Of a DNA stretch of 64,000 nt, positions 1-32,148 are shown piece after piece; position 1 is the stretch's first letter, and each line of letters begins with the position of its first letter. Location: positions 9,133-73,132 of the forward strand of contig CARVLU010000003.1 in the NCBI GenBank assembly GCA_949082785.1, written 5' to 3'. The notes under the pieces were generated by a model, which was given only the letters and a program-made list of their open reading frames with translations, was not told where the DNA came from and made no database searches. Made by a program: the position numbers and the translations under genes. This DNA is from an uncultured Alphaproteobacteria bacterium (lineage in GTDB: Bacteria; Pseudomonadota; Alphaproteobacteria; Rs-D84).

Positions 1-175
1 GAAACATTTCCCGAAACCAAACCAAGCCATCGCTGTACATGGTTTCCAGGTATTCGCGTGCTTCGGCATTGATTTTGCCGGCCGCCGCCGCACGCGCAAT
101 CACATCCAGATTTTTCCGGTCGTGTTCGGCAATAATATCCCGAATGGCGTTATCTGTGGCGGCGGTATGGGTCAT
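1..175 (-). CDS. hypothetical protein, partial (N-terminal ~58 codons; 3' end lies beyond window start)
   Basis: ATG at 175 on minus strand, open frame to position 1 (MTHTAATDNAIRDIIAEHDRKNLDVIARAAAAGKINAEAREYLETMYSDGLVWFREMF); 11 nt downstream of lysS stop, same strand. Confidence 0.35.
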   Translation of the reverse strand, partial: MTHTAATDNAIRDIIAEHDRKNLDVIARAAAAGKINAEAREYLETMYSDGLVWFREMF

Positions 176-186
176 GTTTCATCCTG

Positions 187-1653
187 TTATTTCATAATCG
201 GGAACAAAATCACGTCGCGCAGTGTCGGCGCGTCCGCGATGATGGAAAAGAACCGGTCAATCCCCAGCCCCAATCCCGAAATCGGGGGCATGCCGTGTTC
301 CATCGCACGCAAGAAATCTTCGTCCAGGTCAAAGGCTTCGTCGTCACCGGCGGCCTTGTTCGCCATTTGTTCTTCGAATGCGGCGCGCTGGACAATGGGG
401 TCAACCAATTCCGAATACGCCTTGATCAATTCGGCACCACAGACAATCAATTGGAAAATATCAATACGGCGGCCGTCCGCATCGTTACGCCGCGCCAGCG
501 GAATCATATATGCGGGATAATTGTACACCATGGCCGGGTGAATGATTTGGTCGCGAACCTTGCGCTTGAACACGTAATCGACGATGGCCGGCACGGATTT
601 CAGCGGTTCCAATTCATCCGCCCCAAACATGCCATTTGCAACCAACTGTTGCTTTAACGCGGGGGCGTCGCGGAATTCCAAGATATCCACCCCCAGCAAT
701 TCGTTCATGCGCGCGGTGTAATCGATTTCTTCGTATTTGGAAAAATCCAGTTTTGTCCCCTGGTATTCAATCTGTAATGTGCCGCGCAAATCCATCAAGA
801 TTTTCTGGACCAACGCCCATGAAAACGCCATGTTGTCGCGATAATTCCAATATGCCGCATACCATTCCAGCATCGTAAATTCTTGCAGGTGCATGGCATC
901 CATGCCTTCGTTTCTGAAATTCTTGCCCAATTCATAAACGCGGTCGAATCCGGCGGCAATCGTCTGTTTCAGGAACAATTCCGGCGCAATACGCAGATAG
1001 AAATCCGCATCCAGTGCGTTGTGATGCGTGACGAACGGGCGCGCCGCCGCACCGGACGCAACGGTTTGCATGATGGGTGTTTCCACTTCGACAAAGCCGT
1101 TGTTGTTCAGATAATCACGGATAATGCGCAACATTTGAAAACGCATTTTCATCGTGCGACGTGTGTCTTCGTTTGAAATAATATCCAGATAGCGTTGACG
1201 ATAACGCGTTTCCACATCGGTTAAACCGTGGAATTTTTCGGGCAATGGGCGCAACGCCTTGGCCAGGATTTCATACCCGGTCACCCGAACGGTCAATTCG
1301 CCGGCGGTCGTGTGATACAATTCCCCCGTCAGCCCCACAAAATCCCCCAAATCGACGTTGGATTTAAAGAACTTGTAATTTTCTTCGCCCAGTTCTTCGC
1401 GGGACATCGAAAACTGGATTTCGCCATCAATGTCATAAATGCGCCCGAACATCAATTTACCCAGCCAACGCTGTGCGGTAACGCGACCGGCCAAACGCAC
1501 GGGCGTACCGTCCGCCAATTCACGCGCGGCCACGATGGTGTGGGTGCGGTCAAACTTGTCTTTCCAGACAACGCCGTCACGGGCGCGGATATTTTCCGCC
1601 TTTTGCAGACGGGCGGTCAGTTCGTTGGTGGATATTGATGTATTTTCTGACAT
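187..1653 (-). CDS. lysS: lysine--tRNA ligase (class II)
   Basis: 488-aa ORF with class II aaRS motifs and OB-fold N-domain typical of LysRS (..FRNEG..., GLGIDR...). Confidence 0.95.
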   Translation of the reverse strand: MSENTSISTNELTARLQKAENIRARDGVVWKDKFDRTHTIVAARELADGTPVRLAGRVTAQRWLGKLMFGRIYDIDGEIQFSMSREELGEENYKFFKSNVDLGDFVGLTGELYHTTAGELTVRVTGYEILAKALRPLPEKFHGLTDVETRYRQRYLDIISNEDTRRTMKMRFQMLRIIRDYLNNNGFVEVETPIMQTVASGAAARPFVTHHNALDADFYLRIAPELFLKQTIAAGFDRVYELGKNFRNEGMDAMHLQEFTMLEWYAAYWNYRDNMAFSWALVQKILMDLRGTLQIEYQGTKLDFSKYEEIDYTARMNELLGVDILEFRDAPALKQQLVANGMFGADELEPLKSVPAIVDYVFKRKVRDQIIHPAMVYNYPAYMIPLARRNDADGRRIDIFQLIVCGAELIKAYSELVDPIVQRAAFEEQMANKAAGDDEAFDLDEDFLRAMEHGMPPISGLGLGIDRFFSIIADAPTLRDVILFPIMK

Positions 1654-1680
1654 AACTTTGGTTCCTTGGCATTGCGATTA

Positions 1681-1708
1681 AAAAAACGGACGCAAAAATG
1701 TGCGTCCG
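1681..1708 (-). terminator. rho-independent terminator downstream of tRNA-Gly
   Basis: hairpin CGGACGC-N8-GCGTCCG followed by T-run on minus strand. Confidence 0.5.
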
Positions 1709-1788
1709 TCCTGATTTCTTATGGTCGCACGTATCAATTAAAAAATTTTTTAGAAATGTTTTTCATATTGTCATGCACCTAAAAACTC

Positions 1789-1865
1789 TGGTGCGAGCAA
1801 AGGGGCTCGAACCCTCGACCTCAACCTTGGCAAGGTTGCGCTCTAGCCAACTGAGCTACGCTCGC
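1789..1865 (-). tRNA. tRNA-Gly (anticodon GCC)
   Basis: cloverleaf: acceptor GCGAGCG/TGCTCGC, D-loop AGTTGGCTA, anticodon loop TTGCCAA, T-loop TTCGAGC, encoded CCA. Confidence 0.9.
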
Positions 1866-1940
1866 ACTGCGTGGTGTATTCTGACATATCTTTTTTCAAA
1901 TTGCAAGTGTTATTTTATTGACAATTTTTATGGTTTGGAT

Positions 1941-4331
1941 ATGCTGATTTTAATGAAAAATATCCCAGACAAAAATCTTGGCAGTGCCCGAAAATCCCGC
2001 GAATTATTGATGGCGGGGTCGTATAATACACTGTTCGATAACCTGGTGTTTAATCCCCCGGCGCGATTTTTTGTCTATGCCGCACCCGATTCTGTTCATG
2101 ACATTTTTCACAGGACTTTTGACGCACTGAATAATGCCGCCACATCCATTAACCGCCATGACGCGTGGGCGTTCGACGATGTCGCCCGCATTTTGATGGG
2201 CGCCGCGAACGACATGCAGATGGACACGGCGATTAATTTCCTGGTGTCACGGTGCGCCGTGCCGGAAACGCATTTATATATCCGGCGCGCAAATGCGCCG
2301 GGGCAATTGTTCCCGACCAACCGAATTTATCTGTCGCGATACGCCATGTGCCGGGTGGCGAATTACTGGCTGGCCACAAAAATGCGGGCGGACATCGACA
2401 TGGGCCGACCCGTATTGACCGCGACGCACGCGGCGCATGACAACGGGCGCCACAAAATCCAAACGGAAATGCAATTGGCATTTGCGGCGTATTATTTCGC
2501 GTTCCCCGAAACCGATTGCGATGAAATCGCCCGCATCACATGGGACTGGGTCCGGGCAAAACCGGTTAAGCGTGCCTGGGAATCAGCGCAGAAAAATCTG
2601 ACCAATGAAATGCGGCGCATTTACGGCCGTGAATTTTCGTTTCATTTATTCGAAGAGTTTAAGCAAGAACACATTTTCAACCCGCTGTTTCGTGCACCGG
2701 GCGCCCCGTCCATTCGGGACCAGTATGCGGAAATGCTGACCACGCGGGGATTCAAACCAGACACCGGCGGCGCGCGCGGCGGATGGCGGCGCGGCCGACA
2801 AACCGCCCCCAAATACCCTGGGGGATACTTTGCGCCGCATGCGCTGTTTCTGGCGGCATGGATAACCAATCAATTTTGCGAATTCATATCCAATGAACCG
2901 GCCCCCGACCGCAACCGTACCAAATGGTTTGAATTGCGGGCAAAAAATTTCATGGCAACAATCGGCCAGGGATTGGCGGCCATGCGCCGTGATAACTCCG
3001 CGCTGCGCACGGCGCAACTGTGGGCCGCGCGCCATCACAGCGACGCGTTAAAATCCATTAATGAAATCAAACATGGCCGCGGCCACCGTAAAACCGATGA
3101 CGCAACCGGCCAAGTCATGCACGACAACCCGTCCGCGATGGAATTTTTCCGGACAAAGCATTTATTTTCCGATGACGACATGTGGTGCCTGAAATACCGG
3201 CAAAATGCCCAGCGGCGATTGGTTCAATTGCACGACGCATACCGGGCGGGACCGACATCGGAACTGGCACAAAAAATCGCAGACACAGAAACGCAAATCC
3301 GCGCGGAAAACATCACGCTGTACGATATGGATTTGGGGGGCTTTGTTGATGTGCCACACATTTTAAATGCCGATGGGCAATTTGTACCCCGCCCCGTTGT
3401 GACGCCCGTCATGGGGACACCGCATCAAACGATGACAACAGAACCAGCGGCGACGCCCGTCCACACACCACAACCCGCAATCGCGCCACATCAATACACC
3501 ATTGATTTTGATGCGGCGCCATGGGCCCCGTTTGTTATTAAATCCCCATCTAAAATCCCCGATGGCGCGCCGTTTATTCAATCAACAAATCCAACCACCG
3601 GCGCCCCGTACGTCATGTATGACACGCACGGTCAGTTTGAATCCGTCAACCCATTGCGGCCGGATTTCACGGTGCGCGACCGAATGGGGAACCCAAAAAA
3701 CAACGATGTGAATTTTGAAATGGGCAATTTCCTGTTGGAAAGCGACACCATGCCCCCCGCCGCCCAATTGGCCCAGGCGCACCGTCTGGTGGCACTGGGG
3801 GTGATTAATAAAATCGTGTGGTCTGGCAGCAAATCGTATCACATGCGCTGTACCGTGCGGCCGGCCCCACAAACGCGCGCACAGCGCAAATGGCTGTTCG
3901 CACACATTATCAATACGTATAACATCCAGGGCATCGACCCGGTATGCTGGAACAACGGGCGGTTGATGCGGCGCGCGGGGGCGACACGCCTGGTGGATGG
4001 GCGGGCGGTGACGCAAACACTGATACATCAATCTGATGCCGTTTTGGACATGGATTGGCGCCCATTATATGACGCCCACACGGCAATCCAGAAACACATG
4101 TTCGAAACCACCCACGAATTTTCACCCAAAATAAACGACCGCGTGCGCGCCATGTTGGCCCAGTGGCACGACGGCAATCGCCACAATTTATTAAACATGG
4201 GAATAATCCCCATGATGCACCACGCCGGTTGGACGGATAATCAAATTCGCGCCGCACTGATATCGGACGGCGGAAATCCGGGGCTGAACCGGACAATTGA
4301 AAAATATATCAACAATATTCGTGGGCGGTAA
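1941..4331 (+). CDS. large hypothetical protein (~797 aa) with central Pro/Thr-rich linker
   Basis: 2.4-kb uninterrupted frame with host-like composition; ORF-track frame begins inside tRNA-Gly so start placed at first ATG (1941) after the tRNA; linker PVVTPVMGTPHQTMTTEPAATPVHTPQPAIAPHQ; no recognisable domain. Confidence 0.7.
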   Translation: MLILMKNIPDKNLGSARKSRELLMAGSYNTLFDNLVFNPPARFFVYAAPDSVHDIFHRTFDALNNAATSINRHDAWAFDDVARILMGAANDMQMDTAINFLVSRCAVPETHLYIRRANAPGQLFPTNRIYLSRYAMCRVANYWLATKMRADIDMGRPVLTATHAAHDNGRHKIQTEMQLAFAAYYFAFPETDCDEIARITWDWVRAKPVKRAWESAQKNLTNEMRRIYGREFSFHLFEEFKQEHIFNPLFRAPGAPSIRDQYAEMLTTRGFKPDTGGARGGWRRGRQTAPKYPGGYFAPHALFLAAWITNQFCEFISNEPAPDRNRTKWFELRAKNFMATIGQGLAAMRRDNSALRTAQLWAARHHSDALKSINEIKHGRGHRKTDDATGQVMHDNPSAMEFFRTKHLFSDDDMWCLKYRQNAQRRLVQLHDAYRAGPTSELAQKIADTETQIRAENITLYDMDLGGFVDVPHILNADGQFVPRPVVTPVMGTPHQTMTTEPAATPVHTPQPAIAPHQYTIDFDAAPWAPFVIKSPSKIPDGAPFIQSTNPTTGAPYVMYDTHGQFESVNPLRPDFTVRDRMGNPKNNDVNFEMGNFLLESDTMPPAAQLAQAHRLVALGVINKIVWSGSKSYHMRCTVRPAPQTRAQRKWLFAHIINTYNIQGIDPVCWNNGRLMRRAGATRLVDGRAVTQTLIHQSDAVLDMDWRPLYDAHTAIQKHMFETTHEFSPKINDRVRAMLAQWHDGNRHNLLNMGIIPMMHHAGWTDNQIRAALISDGGNPGLNRTIEKYINNIRGR

Positions 4332-4339
4332 TTTGTTGC

Positions 4340-4368
4340 TTGTTTAAATTGTCAAAATCCGGTATAAT
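4340..4368 (+). promoter_or_regulatory. sigma70-type promoter (TTGTTT-17-TATAAT) of type-2 leader copy 1
   Basis: -35 at 4340-4345, 17-nt spacer, -10 TATAAT at 4363-4368; matches the same arrangement at 27446-27474. Confidence 0.55.
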
Positions 4369-4392
4369 ACATGGCATATAACCGGTTTAACT

Positions 4393-4486
4393 ATGCCTAA
4401 TGCAAAGGGACGATTAAACCCAACTTTTTTGCATTTGAAAGAATCCCCATTTTTCAGCCTTTTGTTCCTAAAAATATGGTCATTTT
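4393..4486 (+). promoter_or_regulatory. type-2 conserved 5' leader with upstream small ORF (uORF) starting ATGCCTAAT (MPNAKGRLNPTFLHLKESPFF...)
   Basis: nucleotide and codon-level conservation with 27500-27584; first 20 codons align gap-free with conservative substitutions. Confidence 0.5.
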
Positions 4487-4999
4487 ATGCCGAATCTAAA
4501 CGTCGGATTGCTTTCGACAATGTGGGGGCAGAATGCGACGGCCGTGAGTGCCGCCGATCAGGCATGCGCCAACTGCTATTGCTGTACCAATGGGACACAG
4601 TTCGCCTGCAAGGGCACATGTTATTACGACGAAAGGTGCTGTATGGGTATGATATGCCCGGAGGGACAGATTTGGGATTCCGAACAAGGAAAATGTGTTG
4701 ACGAACCCGTCGTAAAATTCTGTATGAGTGGCACCTATCCCACAGCAACCAGCTGTAAACCATGCCCGGAAACCACAGATTTTTCATCCACAAACGCCAG
4801 ATGCAGTGCATCATCCCCAGGTGGAACCATAGGTGGCAGTGCTGGCGACACAAGTATTTCACTGGGCATAGAATCGTGTTACATGCCCAAGGAATACCTA
4901 TCCCTAGAAGGCGGCGGCACATGCGAATACACCGATGTTTCTGGAACATTTGAATTTACCCGGAACTGTAACTATTCCGCACGGATTGAACTGGAATAA
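4487..4999 (+). CDS. small cysteine-rich protein, paralogous family member (C-terminal C-P-C ... CY ... GTFEFT ... CNY module)
   Basis: 170-aa ORF, 20 Cys; C-terminal module shared with 13737, 22498, 27585, 48723, 49016 genes; followed by strong terminator. Confidence 0.75.
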   Translation: MPNLNVGLLSTMWGQNATAVSAADQACANCYCCTNGTQFACKGTCYYDERCCMGMICPEGQIWDSEQGKCVDEPVVKFCMSGTYPTATSCKPCPETTDFSSTNARCSASSPGGTIGGSAGDTSISLGIESCYMPKEYLSLEGGGTCEYTDVSGTFEFTRNCNYSARIELE

Positions 5000-5026
5000 A
5001 AAAACGCCCCGACCGGGGCGTTTTAA
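4997..5026. terminator. bidirectional rho-independent terminator (AAAAAACGCCCCGACCGGGGCGTTTT)
   Basis: GC hairpin flanked by A-run and T-run; identical copy at 5378-5404. Confidence 0.85.
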
Positions 5027-5339
5027 CGTGTACGCGGCGGATGATAATAACGCAACGAATCCAGCACATATTGACGCCGTGCCAGTTCCAGCTGTTCTTT
5101 CTTGATTTTCAAATCATCACGATATAAATCGTTGTGTGTTTTTAACTGGCTGTAAATACCGTCCATGCACAACGCAATAAATATTGCGCACCCGGCAATA
5201 ATCCAACGCCGCCCCCCCCCACAGATTTTACCCGAACCGGATCGTCCGAAGTGCCCATTTGGGATTTAATATTGGCATCCACCTTAATCGGTTGATTTTT
5301 TATGTGTATAAATTTATCTTCTATCATCGTATTTCCCAT
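5023..5339 (-). pseudogene. small membrane-anchored coiled-coil protein (FtsB/DivIC-like?) interrupted by frameshift at C9 homopolymer
   Basis: the 5339..5142 frame ends 23 codons after the G9 run; a +1/-2 change in the run joins it to a downstream frame (RRWIIAGCAIFIALCMDGIYSQLKTHNDLYRDDLKIKKEQLELARRQYVLDSLRYYHPPRTR, stop 5023) giving a ~105-aa TM + coiled-coil protein. Confidence 0.5.
5212..5220. repeat. C9/G9 homopolymeric tract inside small ORF (candidate slip site or sequencing-error site)
   Basis: nine consecutive C on + strand. Confidence 0.9.
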
Positions 5340-5377
5340 TTATATCCACAATACATTTCCCATGCCATTTATCAAGT

Positions 5378-5404
5378 AAAAAAACGCCCCGACCGGGGCG
5401 TTTT
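5378..5404. terminator. bidirectional rho-independent terminator (identical to 4997-5026 copy)
   Basis: AAAAACGCCCCGACCGGGGCGTTTT. Confidence 0.85.
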
Positions 5405-5414
5405 AATCATGCGA

Positions 5415-6446
5415 TTACAACCATTTCCACGGCTGCACCAGTTTCAGCAAACCGTACGCGGTACGTTTATCTGCGAACGCATTTCCACAACGCGGACATA
5501 CGATAAACGGTGCCAGCATGGCTTTGACCTTTTTAAACAGTGTGAACCATACAAACAGCCCCACCGCCCATGCAGCCACAACCAATCCCCACGCAACATA
5601 ACCGAAATATTTGTTCACGGTCCCGGTGATAATCTGAATCACGCCGACATTGGATTTTTCCAAATCGTTATAGATTTTTGTTGCCACCGGCCATGACGAC
5701 GGACGCCACGGATAAACATGCTGGATACCGTAATTGGTCAGCAACGTTGTCCCCAACCCGCCGGAATTTTTATCCAGCTGGGTCTTGATGGCTTCGTCAA
5801 TCATTTTGTCGAATTCCATTTGCAGAACGCCCGCCAAATCTTTTTCGATTTTATCCAGCTTTGCGTTCACCTGTTCGGCGATATTGTCCACCTTGGCAAT
5901 GGCCTGGTTCGCCTGATCGACGGCGCCATCGGCGCGGTCAATGGCATGGTCCGCAGACGCCAGCGCATTGTCAATCGCATCGGTTTTTACCCCGAATTTG
6001 CCCGCAATCCCGGTCAGTTTTTTAACACCGCTGGTGGTTTCCTTGGCCTTGGCCGTGGATTCTTTGGCGGCGGCAGTCTTTTCTTTGGCCGCGGCGGTGG
6101 TATCGGTCACCCGGTCCACGGCACCGCCGACCATTTTCACCTGGTCGATGGCGAATGCGACGGGCTTTTCCAGATTAATAGACTTCTTAATCCCATCCAG
6201 CAATTTTTCATACTGCTGCACAATATTGCGTTGCAAGTCAAAGAACATCGATACCACAATCGATTTTTTAATCGGTTGGGAATACGTGTTTTTAACATGC
6301 AGCGGCGCCCAAATCACCAGCGCAATCCACAACACCGACACAATCGCAAATACGCGCTTGGTCCATGTGACATAAGACGTCTTTTTCGCAACGGTTTTTG
6401 CACCGCCGCGGTCGATGACTTCGACTTCTTTTTTCTTTCTTGGCAT
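5415..6446 (-). CDS. hypothetical membrane protein with coiled-coil/Ala-Lys-rich region and C-terminal CPRCG zinc-ribbon-like motif
   Basis: 343-aa ORF, N-terminal TM (VFAIVSVLWIALVIWAPL), second TM near C-terminus, CxxC motif. Confidence 0.65.
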   Translation of the reverse strand: MPRKKKEVEVIDRGGAKTVAKKTSYVTWTKRVFAIVSVLWIALVIWAPLHVKNTYSQPIKKSIVVSMFFDLQRNIVQQYEKLLDGIKKSINLEKPVAFAIDQVKMVGGAVDRVTDTTAAAKEKTAAAKESTAKAKETTSGVKKLTGIAGKFGVKTDAIDNALASADHAIDRADGAVDQANQAIAKVDNIAEQVNAKLDKIEKDLAGVLQMEFDKMIDEAIKTQLDKNSGGLGTTLLTNYGIQHVYPWRPSSWPVATKIYNDLEKSNVGVIQIITGTVNKYFGYVAWGLVVAAWAVGLFVWFTLFKKVKAMLAPFIVCPRCGNAFADKRTAYGLLKLVQPWKWL

Positions 6447-6504
6447 GTGTGTTTCTCCTTTCCTGGGTATAATACGATTTTATGGCCACCGGTTTCAACT
6501 GAAA

Positions 6505-6843
6505 TTATCGCGCCATAAACATGTCATGGAACATTTTAATGCGCGGGCGCAAAATCTGGTCCATTTGGCGCACCACCGGATGATTTTGATAAACATCAAC
6601 AACATCGGACATGGTGTCAAAGTACGCCTGGGCCTGGTCTTCGTCATCGAACGCCGTCACTTCGACCGATGTGTCGGACGTGTATGTACCGCCCCGCCCC
6701 ATCAGATACAAAGAATAGACGTATTTTGTCACATCTTCGTCCCGAATGGACGTTGCCAGATAGATTTTATCCGTCAGGTTCAGCCGCATTTTCGGCCGCG
6801 CCCCAAACGCAATTTCATGATTTTGACTGTTTTTATCTGTCAT
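6505..6843 (-). CDS. hypothetical protein
   Basis: 112-aa ORF immediately downstream of tgt (3-nt gap), same strand. Confidence 0.55.
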   Translation of the reverse strand: MTDKNSQNHEIAFGARPKMRLNLTDKIYLATSIRDEDVTKYVYSLYLMGRGGTYTSDTSVEVTAFDDEDQAQAYFDTMSDVVDVYQNHPVVRQMDQILRPRIKMFHDMFMAR

Positions 6844-6845
6844 GG

Positions 6846-7973
<1,128 letters not shown>

Positions 7974-9248
7974 TTACTTAAAATTATCCCGCCACACGGC
8001 TGCCAAATCGACGTTAAAATCCGCACCCTGGGTAACAATGGACATCGGCCCATCAAAGGAACCACGCACATTTTCAATCACATCGTCCCGACGAACACTT
8101 TCCGACATCCGGGTATCGGCATCCAAATCAAAAAGCCGCCCAGAAAAACGCCAGAAGCTAATTAATTTGTCACAGCGACTGGTCGCAGATTCCATCCAAT
8201 CTGCCCGCGACAGACGATTGCGACAATTTATGCGTCGCAAATCATCGTCTGTAATTGTGTTCTGGGTATAAATTTTGTGTGCATTTTTGGCAATCAACGC
8301 CACCACACGTTCCACATTTTCCGGCGCCGTTTGGGTGTTAAAGCCCGTCAGGCCAAGTTTTTCGTTCCCGACACCGGTGCCTGAAAAACCATACACCAAT
8401 CCATTTTCCCGACGAATAATATCAAACAATTCACGGTTCATATAACGCCAGAATTTTGACACGCATTTGTTCTGGAACAGATTTTCATATGTTGCATCCC
8501 ATACGTCGGGGAACAAAATACTTAACACCACATTTTTCTTGCCCGGTTTGGAATTGTGCGCAATGGTGGGCGTGTATGTGATGCTGGCATTTTCCGGCAC
8601 ATCCAGGTTTGGCAAAAACCCAAAGGCCGTTTCTAAATGTCGCAACACGGCGTCCGCATCCAAAATACGACCCGATATGCCGATGATGCAATTATTGGCC
8701 GACAGGCGCCGCCCCAAAAATTCAATAACCCGATCACGGGTAAAAGACAGAATCAATTCTTCGGTCCCCAAGCCCCGCGTTGAAAACGTTGCATAGTTAA
8801 ACAGTTTACCGGACACAAAATCCCTATATTGTCGCTGGGAATTATCCAGGGCACGGCGCAGCTCATCAATCACAACGCGGTGTTCAATATCAATCTTGTC
8901 CGGTTCAAACAGGGCGTTTTGCAACTGGTCACTGATCACATCAATCAAAACATTAATGTTTTCAGCCAAAATGCGCCCATAAAAATACAGTCGATTATTC
9001 CCCGTGGCGGCATTATGGTTTCCCCCATGATCGTCCAGAAATTCCTGTCGTTCCTTGGACGCTGCAAACCGCGCCGTGCTGCTGCACAACATGTGTTCGC
9101 AAAAATGGGTCAGACCATATTCGGTGGGACCTTCGTCCCGGCTGCCGGTGCGAAACAGAACCTTGACAGACACGGTTTCCAAATCCATCGGGTCCAGGAT
9201 GACCGTCACACCGTTTGATAATTTATGTATGGTCGGATTGTATTGCAC
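7974..9248 (-). CDS. M16 family zinc peptidase (pitrilysin-like, HxxEH)
   Basis: HFCEHM inverted zinc motif; ORF track extends to 9353 (TTG) but GTG at 9248 preceded by GGGGGG SD and 10 nt after upstream gene stop gives the typical M16 N-terminus (VQYNPTIHKLSNGVTV). Confidence 0.8.
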   Translation of the reverse strand: MQYNPTIHKLSNGVTVILDPMDLETVSVKVLFRTGSRDEGPTEYGLTHFCEHMLCSSTARFAASKERQEFLDDHGGNHNAATGNNRLYFYGRILAENINVLIDVISDQLQNALFEPDKIDIEHRVVIDELRRALDNSQRQYRDFVSGKLFNYATFSTRGLGTEELILSFTRDRVIEFLGRRLSANNCIIGISGRILDADAVLRHLETAFGFLPNLDVPENASITYTPTIAHNSKPGKKNVVLSILFPDVWDATYENLFQNKCVSKFWRYMNRELFDIIRRENGLVYGFSGTGVGNEKLGLTGFNTQTAPENVERVVALIAKNAHKIYTQNTITDDDLRRINCRNRLSRADWMESATSRCDKLISFWRFSGRLFDLDADTRMSESVRRDDVIENVRGSFDGPMSIVTQGADFNVDLAAVWRDNFK

Positions 9249-9258
9249 CAAAGCCCCC

Positions 9259-9663
9259 CTATCGCATATGGGCCCGGTCCGCCATCGCCATTTGCGCGGT
9301 GCGCACGCGCTGTAATTCCATTTGCATTTGGGCATATAAACGCTGTAATTCAATCACGCGGCGGCCCATCGTGAACGTCGCGGTTTCCAGTGTTTGGCGG
9401 TCTTGACGCATCGTATCAACTTGTGCCTGCAACTGACTGATTTGTCTTTGGATTTTATCAAATTTTGCTTGTTGCATTGCATAATCTTTTTTACCACCCA
9501 AATACTGATTGTTTGTGTGCATAAACTTTGTAATCGCGTCCTGGGCCGTTTTGGATTTGACGACCATCGTGCCGTATTTCAGTGCCGCCCGGCGGCCCGC
9601 CGGGGTGCGCAAAAACCGCGCCAGTAATTTCGGATTGGCCAACAAACGTAACAATACCTGCAT
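9259..9663 (-). CDS. hypothetical coiled-coil protein (134 aa)
   Basis: ATG at 9663 immediately after queA stop; Q/R-rich coiled-coil C-terminus; the 169-aa ORF-track version overlaps queA and is rejected. Confidence 0.55.
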   Translation of the reverse strand: MQVLLRLLANPKLLARFLRTPAGRRAALKYGTMVVKSKTAQDAITKFMHTNNQYLGGKKDYAMQQAKFDKIQRQISQLQAQVDTMRQDRQTLETATFTMGRRVIELQRLYAQMQMELQRVRTAQMAMADRAHMR

Positions 9664-9664
9664 A

Positions 9665-10687
9665 TTATTTTTCCCCCTGTTTAAACAATAAACAACAATC
9701 CCCATACGAAAAGAACCGATACCGCGCGTCCACCGCATGGCGGTATGCCGCGCGCATTTCATCGACACCCGCGAACGCCGACACCAGCATGAATAACGTC
9801 GATTTTGGCAAATGAAAGTTCGTCAGCAACACGTCCACCGCGCGGAATTTATACCCCGGCGTGATAAAGATATTTGTTGTCTGGCAAAACGGTTTTACGC
9901 GGCGGAATTCCGTACCATCACCGGCACCCATTGCCGCACTTTCCAGTGTGCGCATGGACGTCGTTCCGACCGCAATAACGCGGCGCGCGCGATTGATGAT
10001 GTCCGCCTGGTGGGGCGTAATTTGGCACCATTCGCTGTGCATTTTGTGCTGGGACAAATCTTCGGTTTTAACGGGCATCCATGTCCCCGCCCCAACGTGC
10101 AGTGTGACATGCACAATCTGGGCACCGCGGGCCGTGATTTCATCCATCAATTCCGGCGTAAAATGCAGCCCCGCCGTCGGTGCCGCCATCGACCCCAATG
10201 GCCCGGCATAGACCGTTTGATACCGGTCGCGGTCGGCGGTTTCACAATCGCGCTTCATATACGGGGGCAACGGCATTTTTCCCACCCGGTCCAGCACCGC
10301 AAAAATATCGTCGCATTGGAATTTCAGTTTAATCCCACTGTCGGCATCATGGTCAATGACGGTGGCCACCGTCCCGTCGTCCAGTGTTAAATCGGTGCCG
10401 ACCGGGATTTTATTAAATTTTTTACACAGCCCCCACCATGCGCCGTCATCCGCCGCGGTATGCAGTGTAATTTCGTGGCCAGATGCCATAAATCGCGCCG
10501 GAATCACACGTGAATTGTTAAATACAACCACATCCCCGGGCCGGATAAATTCCAGAAAATCCCGCACACATCTGTCCGCGATTTTTTCCCCATCCACCAC
10601 CAGCATGCGTGACGCATCGCGCCGGTCTAATGGACGCGACGCAATTAAATCAGACGGCAATTCAAAATCAAAATCAGACGTGTGCAT
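9665..10687 (-). CDS. queA: S-adenosylmethionine:tRNA ribosyltransferase-isomerase
   Basis: 340 aa with QueA signature regions (PLPPYMKR..., LHFT, FLFKQGEK C-terminus). Confidence 0.95.
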   Translation of the reverse strand: MHTSDFDFELPSDLIASRPLDRRDASRMLVVDGEKIADRCVRDFLEFIRPGDVVVFNNSRVIPARFMASGHEITLHTAADDGAWWGLCKKFNKIPVGTDLTLDDGTVATVIDHDADSGIKLKFQCDDIFAVLDRVGKMPLPPYMKRDCETADRDRYQTVYAGPLGSMAAPTAGLHFTPELMDEITARGAQIVHVTLHVGAGTWMPVKTEDLSQHKMHSEWCQITPHQADIINRARRVIAVGTTSMRTLESAAMGAGDGTEFRRVKPFCQTTNIFITPGYKFRAVDVLLTNFHLPKSTLFMLVSAFAGVDEMRAAYRHAVDARYRFFSYGDCCLLFKQGEK

Positions 10688-31581: not shown

Positions 31582-32148
31582 ATGACAAAACCGATTAAAT
31601 CCATTGCCGTGTACTGTGGCCATGAATTTGGTAATAACCCACAATTTGCCCGCGATGCGGCCCGGGTCGGCGAATTATTGGCCCGGAATAAATTTCGTAT
31701 GGTCTTTGGGGGGGGCAACGTTGGTCTGATGGGCGAATGCGCGACCGCCGCCATCCGCAACGGGGGCGATGTTATCGGGGTATCCACCCATCATGTGGTC
31801 GCCCTGCAAGAACCCGCCCACGAAGACGTCGCCGTGGAAATCGTTGACGGCGTCAATGAACGCAAGCAAAAGATGTTCGACGCATCGGATGCCTTTATCA
31901 TTTTGCCGGGCGGGATTGGAACACTGAACGAATTGACCGACGTTATGACCATGCAACAGATTGGGGAAACGAAAAAGCCGCTGTTCTTTTTAAACACGGC
32001 GCGTTTCTGGGGCATTTTCGGCCGCGTGTTGGTGCACATGCAACACAACGGATTTATCGAAAGCATGAAAGATTACGACATCACCGTCGCCAACACGCCC
32101 GATGAATTGATTGACAAAATCTTAAAAAGAAATCAGTTTGTCGCGTGA
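31582..32148 (+). CDS. LOG family protein (cytokinin riboside 5'-monophosphate phosphoribohydrolase-like)
   Basis: GGGNVGLMG and PGGIGTLNE motifs. Confidence 0.85.
   Translation: MTKPIKSIAVYCGHEFGNNPQFARDAARVGELLARNKFRMVFGGGNVGLMGECATAAIRNGGDVIGVSTHHVVALQEPAHEDVAVEIVDGVNERKQKMFDASDAFIILPGGIGTLNELTDVMTMQQIGETKKPLFFLNTARFWGIFGRVLVHMQHNGFIESMKDYDITVANTPDELIDKILKRNQFVA

What the first reader, a model, noticed from the sequence alone, without database searches (positions are those of the whole stretch)
5023..5339. Small membrane/coiled-coil gene (FtsB/DivIC-like?) split by a C9 homopolymer, between two identical terminators
The minus-strand ORF from 5339 to 5142 encodes MGNTMIEDKF...KSVGGGG and then runs into out-of-frame sequence. 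A single-base change in the G9/C9 run at 5212-5220 joins it to a downstream frame that ends at 5023. That frame reads RRWIIAGCAIFIALCMDGIYSQL (a TM helix) followed by KTHNDLYRDDLKIKKEQLELARRQYVLDSLRYY (a coiled coil).

The repaired product is a ~105-aa bitopic protein of the septum-initiator (FtsB/DivIC/FtsL) type.

Three explanations fit: a sequencing or assembly error at a homopolymer, phase variation by slipped-strand mispairing, or recent pseudogenisation.

The locus sits between two identical terminator copies at 4997-5026 and 5378-5404.
Basis: partly seen in the sequence, partly recalled or inferred. Interest (0 to 1): 0.6.

Follow-up and report, generated by a model that had tools for sequence, protein, structure and literature searches.

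The report
Poly-G on/off switch in membrane gene
A small membrane-protein gene of an uncultured gut alphaproteobacterium is interrupted by a run of nine G's whose length differs (7 to 11) between otherwise identical genomes, so it is a classic slippage-driven on/off (phase-variable) gene caught in the OFF state, not a broken cell-division gene.

Summary
A minus-strand gene is split by a G9 run at 5212-5220. G10 or G7 restores one ORF of 105/104 aa (101/100 aa from the likely true start at 5327). Identical hairpin terminators flank it.

The FtsB/DivIC reading is not supported:
- Pfam, NCBIfam, PDB and hhalign searches give no match.
- The gene context is wrong for a division gene.
- The family is tiny and clade-restricted.

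Phase variation is strongly supported:
- Public assemblies carry G7, G8, G9, G10 and G11 alleles with identical flanks.
- In 14 contigs of 3.6-7.0 kb the tract length is the only difference from the window.
- ON alleles (G7, G10) are on about 119 contigs and OFF alleles (G8, G9, G11) on about 155.
- The length spectrum resembles that of Campylobacter poly-G contingency loci.
- A G8 run in a housekeeping gene of the same genome shows no frameshifted forms across 131 contigs.
- Relatives have GGT GGT or GGC GGT at this site and intact genes (dN/dS 0.06-0.14).

The product is a bitopic protein: a disordered tail, a TM segment and one long helix with a conserved LDS motif. It is encoded directly after a highly conserved 343-aa membrane protein, its probable partner. 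Its biochemical function is unknown. This is a new member of a known kind of switch, and interest is moderate.

The parts
5023..5327 (-). Small phase-variable gene, from its probable true start (second ATG, M5) to the stop codon. In this window it is frameshifted at the G9 tract (OFF). With G10 it encodes a 101-aa bitopic membrane protein, and with G7 a 100-aa one.
   Evidence: frames; the first ATG is ACG in lineage B, and homologues start at M5; intact homologues and an exact G10 allele. TM at residues 42-60 and one helix at 43-99.
5328..5339 (-). Four extra codons (MGNT) from an upstream in-frame ATG. It is probably 5' UTR carrying the ribosome-binding site (GGGAAA) rather than coding sequence.
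   Evidence: ATG is replaced by ACG in L037, L038 and L043, and all distant homologues lack these codons.
5212..5220 (-). Poly-G tract (G9 here). It is the hypermutable simple-sequence repeat and sits at the Gly-Gly linker between the cytoplasmic tail and the TM helix. G7 and G10 are in frame; G8, G9 and G11 are out of frame.
   Evidence: (G7-G11 in DNA with identical flanks; the only difference in 14 otherwise identical contigs).
5142..5327 (-). OFF-state product of the G9 allele. It is 61 aa (65 aa from the first ATG): the N-terminal tail plus an out-of-frame 22-residue end (GVGLLPGAQYLLRCAWTVFTAS), with no TM segment.
   Evidence: P0005 and P0013 are this product on about 140 contigs.
4997..5026 (-). 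Downstream intrinsic terminator (10-bp stem, GGUC loop, U7). It overlaps the stop codon TAA and lies between convergent genes.
   Evidence: -16.5 kcal/mol, z = -4.2.
5377..5406 (-). Identical copy of the terminator, placed after the 343-aa gene. It insulates the small gene from upstream transcription.
   Evidence: relatives have a hairpin here too, but of a different sequence.
5348..5375 (-). Promoter-like element of the small gene (TTGATA, 16 nt, TATTGT), immediately after the terminator's T-run.
   Evidence: 9 of 12 matches; the count alone is not significant; a CTTGAT/CTTGAA box directly after the T-run, followed by a TATAAT-like box, is present in L015, L016, L019 and L034.
5415..6446 (-). 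343-aa membrane protein of unknown family with two TM segments, a long helical Ala/Lys/Asp-rich middle and a C-terminal CPRCG. It is always encoded immediately upstream and is the probable partner.
   Evidence: synteny; a 14-17 nt gap in distant members. (68-80% identity over more than 1000 clusters). (no family). (model pLDDT 46).
6505..6843 (-). 112-aa protein of unknown family. It is the first gene of the conserved trio that follows tgt.
   Evidence: a 112-113 aa gene in the same position in most relatives. (no family).
1789..1865 (-). tRNA-Gly(GCC), the ancestral downstream neighbour of the small gene. In this species it is separated from the gene by an inserted segment of about 3.1 kb.

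Best explanation
This is a simple-sequence-repeat contingency locus, that is, translational phase variation.

The gene encodes a protein of about 100 aa: a roughly 40-residue, probably cytoplasmic tail, a Gly-Gly linker, one TM helix, and a helical C-terminal segment that is probably periplasmic. That segment ends in the family signature NELK..EL.I..QLELA.RQY.LDSL.

In this species the two Gly codons of the linker, GGT GGT in the sister lineage, have become GGG GGG. This created an uninterrupted G run (GT-G7-CGG). Slipped-strand mispairing during replication then adds or removes G's.
- G7 and G10 are in frame (ON, full-length protein with 2 or 3 Gly).
- G8, G9 and G11 are out of frame (OFF). 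They give a 61-70-aa fragment lacking the TM helix and the conserved C-terminal motif.
- The window carries the commonest OFF allele, G9.

The gene is its own transcription unit. It has a promoter-like element directly after the terminator of the upstream gene, and its own terminator, so switching affects only this protein.

What is shown: the tract polymorphism, the frame consequences, the intactness and conservation of orthologues, and the synteny.

What is inferred: the slippage mechanism and its reversibility, the topology (N-in, C-out), the promoter, and that the protein acts as a switchable small subunit or modulator of the adjacent, highly conserved 343-aa membrane protein. The cellular process it affects is unknown.
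For: 1. Tract alleles G7, G8, G9, G10 and G11 were read directly in DNA from 38 contigs, with identical flanks.

2. Across the 20 near-identical contigs compared with the window (115,388 aligned nt) there are 20 substitutions and 21 gap openings, 18 of them at the tract. In 14 contigs of 3.6-7.0 kb the tract is the only difference.

3. Collection-wide contig counts by exact protein:
- G7: 52 contigs
- G8: about 10 contigs
- G9: about 140 contigs
- G10: 67 contigs
- G11: 2 contigs
This is a five-length spectrum peaking at G9 then G10. It resembles Campylobacter poly-G phase-variable tracts, which are 53% G9 and 26% G10, with a cut-off of 7 or more G (PMC6321876).

4. Negative control: the in-frame G8 of the LOG-like gene (31708-31715) gives the intact protein on 131 contigs. 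Its G7 and G9 frameshift forms are absent from the collection.

5. The gene is real and constrained.
- Intact homologues of 100-104 aa have interrupted tracts: GGGTGGT, GGCGGT and TGGGGCGGC.
- dN/dS against distant relatives is 0.06-0.14, including the part downstream of the tract.
- There are 0-1 differences in 305 nt between the window and the 97% lineage, against 4.4% in tgt.
- No lesion other than the tract was seen in any contig.

6. Anatomy: one TM segment (KD 1.79, residues 42-60) with RR on the N side. AF2 gives a single helix at 43-99 with pLDDT about 90. The OFF-frame tails have no TM.

7. The gene always follows the 330-343-aa gene downstream of tgt, with only a 14-17 nt gap in distant members.
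Against: - No reads were available, so mixed tract lengths within one population and reversibility within one lineage are not shown. Each assembly reports only a consensus allele.
- The contigs were fetched by allele, so the sample of DNA loci is not random. Contig counts may include the same sample assembled by several sources.
- Some 'MIEDKF'-start proteins come from different gene callers rather than from different lineages.
- The ON fraction among G8-G11 alleles is about 31%, close to the one third expected from neutral drift of the tract. Adaptive switching is therefore not demonstrated.
- Between the window and its sister lineage, dN/dS is 0.48 overall, and downstream of the tract there are 6 non-synonymous changes to 1 synonymous. 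The counts are small, but some relaxation of constraint cannot be excluded.
- Typical phase-variable genes encode surface structures or restriction-modification enzymes. A small inner-membrane protein of unknown function is atypical.
Confidence: 0.75

Rival explanations
1. Non-adaptive decay. The gene has become dispensable in this species. A chance homopolymer makes it frameshift-prone, and the tract drifts neutrally between lengths on the way to pseudogenisation. The tract is hypermutable, but it is not a functional switch.
For: - The ON fraction among G8-G11 alleles is about 31%, near the neutral third.
- The commonest allele (G9) is OFF.
- dN/dS is raised between the window and its sister lineage: 0.48 overall, with 6 non-synonymous to 1 synonymous change downstream of the tract.
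- The clade has reduced genomes, where gene loss is common (PMC12306168).
Against: - No second lesion was seen in any of the 38 contigs with a tract.
- The gene is the least diverged segment between two lineages that differ by 4.4% in tgt.
- In-frame alleles are abundant, about 119 contigs.
- All ten contigs examined from the 97% lineage, which were retrieved through the G7 protein P0010, carry in-frame G7.
- The family is under strong purifying selection elsewhere.
Confidence: 0.15
2. Sequencing or assembly artefact. The true tract has one in-frame length, and the other lengths are homopolymer miscounts by sequencers or assemblers.
For: - Long G runs are error-prone in library PCR and sequencing.
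- Some variant contigs have low coverage, for example L027 (cov 3.8) and L048 (cov 2.9).
- No reads could be inspected.
Against: - G9 is reproduced on about 140 contigs from NCBI, ENA and Logan, built with different assemblers, including one at 91x coverage.
- Five different lengths occur, with substantial counts at G7, G9 and G10. This is not an error halo around one value.
- The G8 run in the LOG-like gene of the same genomes never appears frameshifted across 131 contigs.
- No other homopolymer varies among the near-identical contigs.
Confidence: 0.04
3. Recoding. The out-of-frame arrangement is the functional state, and the full-length protein is made by programmed -1 ribosomal frameshifting on G_GGG_GGG, or by transcriptional slippage on the G9 run.
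For: - In the G9 allele the heptamer G GGG GGG is in the X XXY YYZ register.
- A -1 slip would give exactly the G10 protein (sequence).
- From general knowledge, long homopolymers can cause RNA-polymerase slippage, so OFF alleles may be leaky.
Against: - The frame arrangement is not conserved. In-frame G7 and G10 alleles, and G8 and G11 alleles that would need a different shift, all occur.
- All relatives are unshifted and have non-slippery sequence at this site.
- There is no significant RNA structure downstream of the tract (z = -0.8 and -1.7), and the best local hairpin starts 22 nt away.
- No Rfam match.
Confidence: 0.05

Closest known systems
Poly-G/C simple-sequence-repeat contingency loci of Campylobacter, Helicobacter, Neisseria and Haemophilus (translational phase variation by slipped-strand mispairing)
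   Same: - An intragenic G run of 7 or more in the 5' half of the ORF.
- Length polymorphism of G7-G11 on otherwise identical DNA.
- ON and OFF alleles that differ only in frame.
- A length spectrum peaking at G9 then G10, as in Campylobacter (PMC6321876).
- An origin by synonymous change of consecutive Gly codons, one of the genesis routes proposed in that paper.
   Different: - The host is an uncultured, reduced-genome gut alphaproteobacterium of the Rs-D84 / Ca. Enterousia-like clade, not a classical pathogen.
- The product is a small inner-membrane protein of unknown family, not a glycosyltransferase, adhesin, receptor or restriction-modification enzyme.
- Switching rate and reversibility have not been measured.
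FtsB / DivIC / FtsL septum-initiator proteins
   Same: - Size of about 100 aa.
- Bitopic layout, with one TM helix continuing into a long helix outside the membrane.
- Like FtsL, a cytoplasmic tail of about 40 residues precedes the TM.
   Different: - No sequence or profile similarity.
- Not in the dcw cluster or next to eno.
- The family is restricted to about 45 clusters.
- Frameshifted in most assemblies, which an essential divisome component could not tolerate.
- Its own conserved signature (RQY.LDSL) is not that of FtsB or FtsL.
Programmed frameshift or transcriptional-slippage genes (e.g. dnaX, IS element transposases)
   Same: A homopolymer at the junction of two frames. The G9 allele formally contains a -1 slippery heptamer.
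   Different: The site length is not fixed, in-frame alleles are common, relatives lack it, and there is no downstream stimulatory structure.

Membership tests
SSR-mediated phase-variable (contingency) locus | Uninterrupted mononucleotide repeat at or above the empirically mutable length (7 or more G/C) inside the reading frame | tested here: met
   G9 at 5212-5220, inside the ORF at the Gly-Gly linker. The threshold comes from PMC6321876.
SSR-mediated phase-variable (contingency) locus | Tract length differs between closely related or otherwise identical genomes | tested here: met
   G7-G11 with identical flanks. The tract is the only difference in 14 contigs of 3.6-7.0 kb. Of 21 gap openings in 115 kb, 18 are at the tract.
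SSR-mediated phase-variable (contingency) locus | Length changes toggle between an intact ORF and a truncated one, and both states occur in nature | tested here: met
   ON alleles G7 and G10 are on about 119 contigs. OFF alleles G8, G9 and G11 are on about 155 contigs.
SSR-mediated phase-variable (contingency) locus | The gene is otherwise functional: no other lesions, and orthologues are intact and under purifying selection | tested here: met
   (intact orthologues with interrupted tracts). (dN/dS 0.06-0.14). (0-1 differences in 305 nt against 4.4% in tgt).
SSR-mediated phase-variable (contingency) locus | The variation is not a general homopolymer sequencing artefact | tested here: met
   The G8 run in the LOG-like gene gives 131 contigs intact and 0 with G7 or G9 frameshift forms. 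Other homopolymers are invariant among the near-identical contigs. Caveat: the control tract is shorter (G8).
SSR-mediated phase-variable (contingency) locus | High-frequency, reversible switching within a clonal lineage, with mixed lengths within a population | not testable with these tools
   No reads and no cultures are available. The organism is uncultured. Only consensus alleles per assembly were seen.
FtsB/DivIC/FtsL septum-initiator family | Sequence or profile membership (Pfam DivIC PF04977 or FtsL PF04999; NCBIfam FtsB/FtsL models; similarity to solved FtsB/FtsL) | tested here: not met
   - No Pfam hit at E<=1 for the protein or any of 38 family members.
- In NCBIfam, 1 of 38 members gives a sub-threshold FtsL match (E=0.05), among equally weak spanin, LysB and MreC noise.
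- The PDB profile search finds no FtsB or FtsL.
- hhalign probability is 0.1% against E. coli FtsB and FtsL. Those sequences were verified.
FtsB/DivIC/FtsL septum-initiator family | Bitopic topology: one TM helix followed by an extracytoplasmic coiled coil | tested here: met
   TM at residues 42-60 and a continuous helix at 43-99. This layout is generic and is shared with spanins, MreC and many others.
FtsB/DivIC/FtsL septum-initiator family | Genomic context (ftsL in the mraZ-rsmH-ftsL-ftsI dcw cluster; ftsB typically next to eno or ispD) and near-universal distribution | tested here: not met
   The context is era-queA-tgt-112aa-343aa-gene-tRNA-Gly in all relatives. Only about 45 clusters exist in 1.84 billion representatives. 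The expected contexts are from general knowledge.
FtsB/DivIC/FtsL septum-initiator family | Essential, so constitutively intact | tested here: not met
   The gene is out of frame on about 155 of about 275 contigs.
Programmed -1 frameshift / transcriptional slippage gene | A fixed out-of-frame arrangement conserved among strains and relatives, with a stimulatory structure 5-9 nt downstream | tested here: not met
   (variable length, in-frame alleles, relatives unshifted). (no significant structure).

The most novel reading that the evidence does not exclude
This is an evolutionarily young contingency locus caught at its birth: GGT GGT became G7 and then G8-G11, on a gene that had already acquired its own promoter and terminator. 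Its host is an uncultured, reduced-genome gut alphaproteobacterium of the Rs-D84 / Ca. Enterousia-like clade. The locus switches the small subunit of a clade-specific, very highly conserved three-gene membrane module (112 aa, 343 aa and about 100 aa, downstream of tgt). That module would mediate an interaction under fluctuating selection, such as attachment to a host or partner cell, or phage susceptibility. If true, this would be the first functional handle on that module, and evidence that such symbionts use pathogen-style stochastic switching.
Probability: 0.3. Interest if true: 0.55.

Novelty: new member of a known kind. Interest (0 to 1): 0.4.

Why it matters
- **Annotation.** The 65-aa and 49-aa ORF calls, and any 'pseudogene' label, should be replaced by one phase-variable gene in the OFF state. 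The FtsB/DivIC guess should not be propagated.
- **Reach of the mechanism.** Poly-G contingency switching is best known from Campylobacter, Helicobacter, Neisseria and Haemophilus. Here it operates in an uncultured gut alphaproteobacterial lineage with a reduced genome. It was detected purely by comparing public assemblies that are otherwise identical.
- **A pointer to an unknown module.** The switch marks a conserved, uncharacterised membrane module (112 aa, 343 aa and about 100 aa, after tgt) as being under fluctuating selection. That is a pointer to where this organism's interaction with its environment may lie.
- **Limit.** The mechanism itself is not new, and the protein's function remains unknown.

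Tried and rejected
- **FtsB/DivIC/FtsL.** Rejected after Pfam, NCBIfam, PDB profile and hhalign tests and a context check.
- **Phage or defence role.** PHROGs and PADLOC gave only weak coiled-coil noise.
- **343-aa partner structure.** The AF2 model has pLDDT 46, too poor for a fold search, so none was run.
- **Small protein structure.** It models as a single helix. A fold search would not discriminate between families, so it was not run.
- **JGI metagenome scan.** The tract-spanning DNA pattern gave 0 hits, so this species is not in that collection.
- **Lineage assignment by start codon.** I first assumed that proteins starting at 'MIEDKF' marked the 97% lineage. That was wrong: P0013 contigs are 100% identical to the window. 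I therefore pooled the counts and did not claim per-lineage spectra.
- **Programmed frameshifting.** Considered and rejected as the main mechanism.
- **Identical terminators as ends of a mobile cassette.** Relatives also have a hairpin at both positions, but with unrelated sequences. The identity in this species group looks like local copying or gene conversion. Excision between the 30-nt repeats was not tested.

Full report
**1. The observation**

The region was read on the minus strand and ORFs were listed.
- A 65-aa ORF (5339..5142) runs MGNTMIEDKF...VRVKSVGGGG and then into out-of-frame sequence.
- A second frame continues ...RRWIIAGCAIFIALCMDGIYSQLKTHNDLYRDDLKIKKEQLELARRQYVLDSLRYYHPPRTR to a stop at 5025-5023.
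- The two frames meet in an uninterrupted G9 at 5220..5212 (C9 on the plus strand). This is the longest homopolymer in the window. The only other G/C run of 8 or more is a G8 at 31708-31715.
- Rebuilding the tract in silico shows that G10 or G7 gives one ORF of 105 or 104 aa. G8 and G11 give a 73/74-aa product, and G9 gives the 65-aa product.
- The two hairpin + T7 elements are identical over 30 nt (4997-5026 and 5377-5406). They are the only two copies in the window, with none in 100 shuffles. Each folds at -16.5 kcal/mol with z about -4.

The repairing 'single-base change' must be an insertion.

**2. Is it one gene?**

A search with the repaired protein found intact homologues:
- P0001: 104 aa, 90% identity, full coverage.
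- P0002 and P0003: 101 aa, 72% identity.
- P0004: 101 aa, 54% identity.
- Also 65-aa and 73-aa truncated forms.

A profile search of 1.84 billion representatives found only about 45 clusters. All but one of the hits are 52-107 aa; the exception is a 2154-aa protein matching only a short repeated stretch.

The family alignment shows a variable N-terminal tail, a juxtamembrane G-x-R, a hydrophobic segment, and a conserved C-terminal signature NELK..EL.I..QLELA.RQ[YF].LDS[LI] with invariant D-S.

dN/dS between the window gene and distant members is 0.06-0.14, including the part downstream of the tract. It is a real protein-coding gene.

In the 97%-identical lineage the first ATG is ACG, and all distant homologues begin at the second ATG. 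The true start is therefore probably 5327, giving 101 aa (G10) or 100 aa (G7).

**3. The tract is hypervariable**

DNA was fetched for each protein form and the tract was read in every contig.

| Allele | Where seen |
|---|---|
| G7 | L037-L046 |
| G8 | L003-L008 |
| G9 | window, L001, L002, L052, L053 |
| G10 | L024-L033 |
| G11 | L047, L048 |

The flanks are identical in all of them.

Every indel was mapped against the window. In the 20 near-identical contigs compared (115,388 aligned nt) there are 20 substitutions, 16 of them in two low-coverage contigs. There are 21 gap openings, of which 18 are at the tract. In 14 contigs of 3.6-7.0 kb from different samples and assemblers, the tract length is the only difference from the window.

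Exact-sequence look-ups give collection-wide contig counts:

| Allele | Proteins (contigs) | Total |
|---|---|---|
| G7 | P0010 (37), P0011 (15) | 52 |
| G8 | P0007 (4), P0017 (4), P0018 (2) | about 10 |
| G9 | P0005 (90), P0013 (48), plus singletons | about 140 |
| G10 | P0008 (23), P0009 (44) | 67 |
| G11 | P0016 (2) | 2 |

The exact G6 and G12 forms are absent. In-frame alleles are therefore on about 119 contigs and out-of-frame alleles on about 155.

The spectrum peaks at G9, then G10. This resembles Campylobacter poly-G phase-variable tracts, which are 53% G9 and 26% G10, with other lengths less common, and where 7 or more G is the working threshold (PMC6321876).

**4. Control for artefact**

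The window's other long G run (G8, 31708-31715) lies in frame in a LOG/TIGR00730-like gene, where it encodes FGGGN. The intact protein is on 131 contigs. The proteins expected from G7 or G9 miscounts are not in the collection at all. No other homopolymer varies among the near-identical contigs. General homopolymer miscounting therefore does not explain the variation, although the control tract is one to three bases shorter than the tracts being tested.

**5. Origin of the tract**

The sister lineage (about 95-97% identical DNA; L009-L014) has GTG GGT GGT CGG at this site. More distant relatives have GTT GGC GGT CGT, GTC GGC GGT CGT, GTA TGG GGC GGC CGG or GTG GGT GGT CGT. Two synonymous T-to-G changes turn GGT GGT into the in-frame G7, from which the G8-G11 alleles derive. 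The homopolymer is thus a recent, species-level innovation, placed in a Gly-Gly linker that tolerates two or three glycines.

**6. Not a decaying pseudogene**

No contig has any second lesion. Between the window and the 97% lineage, divergence by segment is:

| Segment | Divergence |
|---|---|
| Small gene | 0-1 differences in 305 nt |
| 343-aa gene | 1.0% |
| 877-aa ORF | 2.3% |
| 112-aa gene | 3.0% |
| Cys-rich gene | 3.7% |
| tgt | 4.4% |

Some caution is needed. Against the sister lineage dN/dS is 0.48, with 6 non-synonymous changes to 1 synonymous downstream of the tract. The ON fraction among G8-G11 alleles (about 31%) is close to the neutral third. Adaptive value is therefore inferred, not shown.

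**7. Not recoding**

In the G9 allele, G GGG GGG is formally a -1 slippery heptamer, and a -1 slip would give the G10 protein. Four results argue against recoding as the main mechanism:
- The arrangement is not fixed.
- Relatives lack it.
- The downstream RNA is not significantly structured (z = -0.8 and -1.7).
- Rfam finds nothing.

Leaky expression from OFF alleles remains possible.

**8. What the protein is**

- Pfam gives no hit at E<=1 for the repaired protein or for any of 38 family members.
- NCBIfam gives only scattered sub-threshold noise: one FtsL match at E=0.05, next to spanin, LysB and MreC matches.
- PDB profile searches find nothing relevant.
- hhalign against E. coli FtsB and FtsL gives 0.1% probability each.
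- No FtsB- or FtsL-like ORF was detected in the window itself. The rest of the genome could not be searched.
- Hydropathy gives one TM segment at residues 42-60 (KD 1.79), with RR on its N-terminal side. Both OFF-frame tails lack a TM.
- AF2 with the family alignment gives a disordered region at residues 1-42 and a single confident helix at 43-99.

The protein is FtsL-like only in its generic bitopic layout. Membership of that family is not supported.

**9. Context**

In every relative the gene follows a 328-343-aa membrane protein downstream of tgt, usually with a 112-116-aa gene in between. In distant members the gap is only 14-17 nt, which suggests an operon.

In nearer relatives, and in the window, a hairpin + T-run lies between the two genes. 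It is followed directly by a CTTGAT/CTTGAA box and a TATAAT-like box. In the window this is TTGATA, 16 nt, TATTGT.

The two hairpins are identical only in this species group. In L019 the upstream and downstream hairpins differ.

The 343-aa protein is far more conserved than the small one: 68-80% identity over more than 1000 clusters. It has no family assignment, and its model is unusable (pLDDT 46).

Source names for its homologues are 'Candidatus Enterousia sp.', 'Rickettsiales bacterium' and 'Alphaproteobacteria bacterium'. The genome-collection relatives are uncultured Alphaproteobacteria MAGs. Ca. Enterousia, of order Rs-D84, comprises gut bacteria with reduced genomes of about 1 Mb or less (PMC12306168). 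Assigning the window's organism to this clade is an inference from these names.

**10. Verdict**

This is a poly-G contingency locus in the OFF (G9) state. It encodes a small bitopic membrane protein of a narrow, unnamed family, which probably works with the adjacent 343-aa membrane protein.
- Shown: the observation and the tract hypervariability.
- Inferred: reversibility, adaptive value and the partner relationship.
- Unknown: the biochemical function.

It is a new member of a known kind of switch, in an unusual host and on an unusual type of gene. Interest is moderate.

Noticed in passing
window 31708-31715 (ORF 31582-32148, +): The second-longest G run (G8) lies in frame in a LOG/TIGR00730-like gene, where it encodes the conserved FGGGN motif. 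The intact protein is on 131 contigs, and no G7 or G9 frameshift forms exist in the collection. A long G run under purifying selection therefore stays fixed in these assemblies.
   Followed up: yes
window 1941-4999 (+ strand genes 4487-4999 and about 1941-4331), between the small gene and tRNA-Gly 1789-1865: In distant relatives tRNA-Gly(GCC) follows the small gene within about 50 nt. Here about 3.1 kb is inserted on the opposite strand. It carries a Cys-rich 159-170-aa protein and an ORF of about 800-877 aa with no family, apart from a weak PHROG primase hit at E=0.05. The listed 877-aa ORF start (1698) overlaps the tRNA in antisense and is probably an artefact.
   Followed up: partly
window 5023-5060; L019 and L035 gene 3' ends: The last ~10 residues of the small protein exist in two versions...LRYYHPPRTR and ...LALEQNRKIR. 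The first occurs when the Cys-rich gene lies downstream, the second when the tRNA follows directly. L035 and L019 are identical up to about codon 85 and then switch version. This implies a recombination breakpoint inside the 3' end of the gene.
   Followed up: partly
L052 (= window 2142-8327), L001 (= window 142-10339): Contigs 100% identical to the window over 6-10 kb recur in 20 or more independent samples. This strain is remarkably clonal across datasets, for example as a shared laboratory-animal or host-restricted lineage would be. The sample origins were not determined.
   Followed up: no
window 4426-4494; L010, L037: A cluster of small indels lies upstream of, and at the start of, the Cys-rich gene. 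Its called product length varies between contigs: 159, 165, 170, 174, 178 and 203 aa. The start or N-terminus of this gene is variable.
   Followed up: no
L016 5355-6946: One relative has two tRNA-Gly(GCC) copies flanking a phage-integrase fragment and a HicAB toxin-antitoxin pair, just downstream of the small gene. The tRNA-Gly locus appears to be an integration hotspot in this clade.
   Followed up: no
window 5415-6446 (-) and 6505-6843 (-): The 343-aa protein is extremely conserved across the clade, with more than 100 invariant columns in 30 sequences. It has two TM segments, a long Ala/Lys/Asp-rich helical region, and a C-terminal CPRCG...QPWKW. It has no Pfam or NCBIfam family. With the 112-aa protein it forms an uncharacterised conserved module after tgt.
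   Followed up: partly
L027 (window 7235 and 2315 equivalents): A low-coverage contig (cov 3.8) has a 17-nt insertion that splits tgt into 250-aa and 125-aa parts, plus a 1-nt deletion. These are most likely assembly errors. It is a reminder that single low-coverage contigs should not be trusted for tract calls.
   Followed up: no
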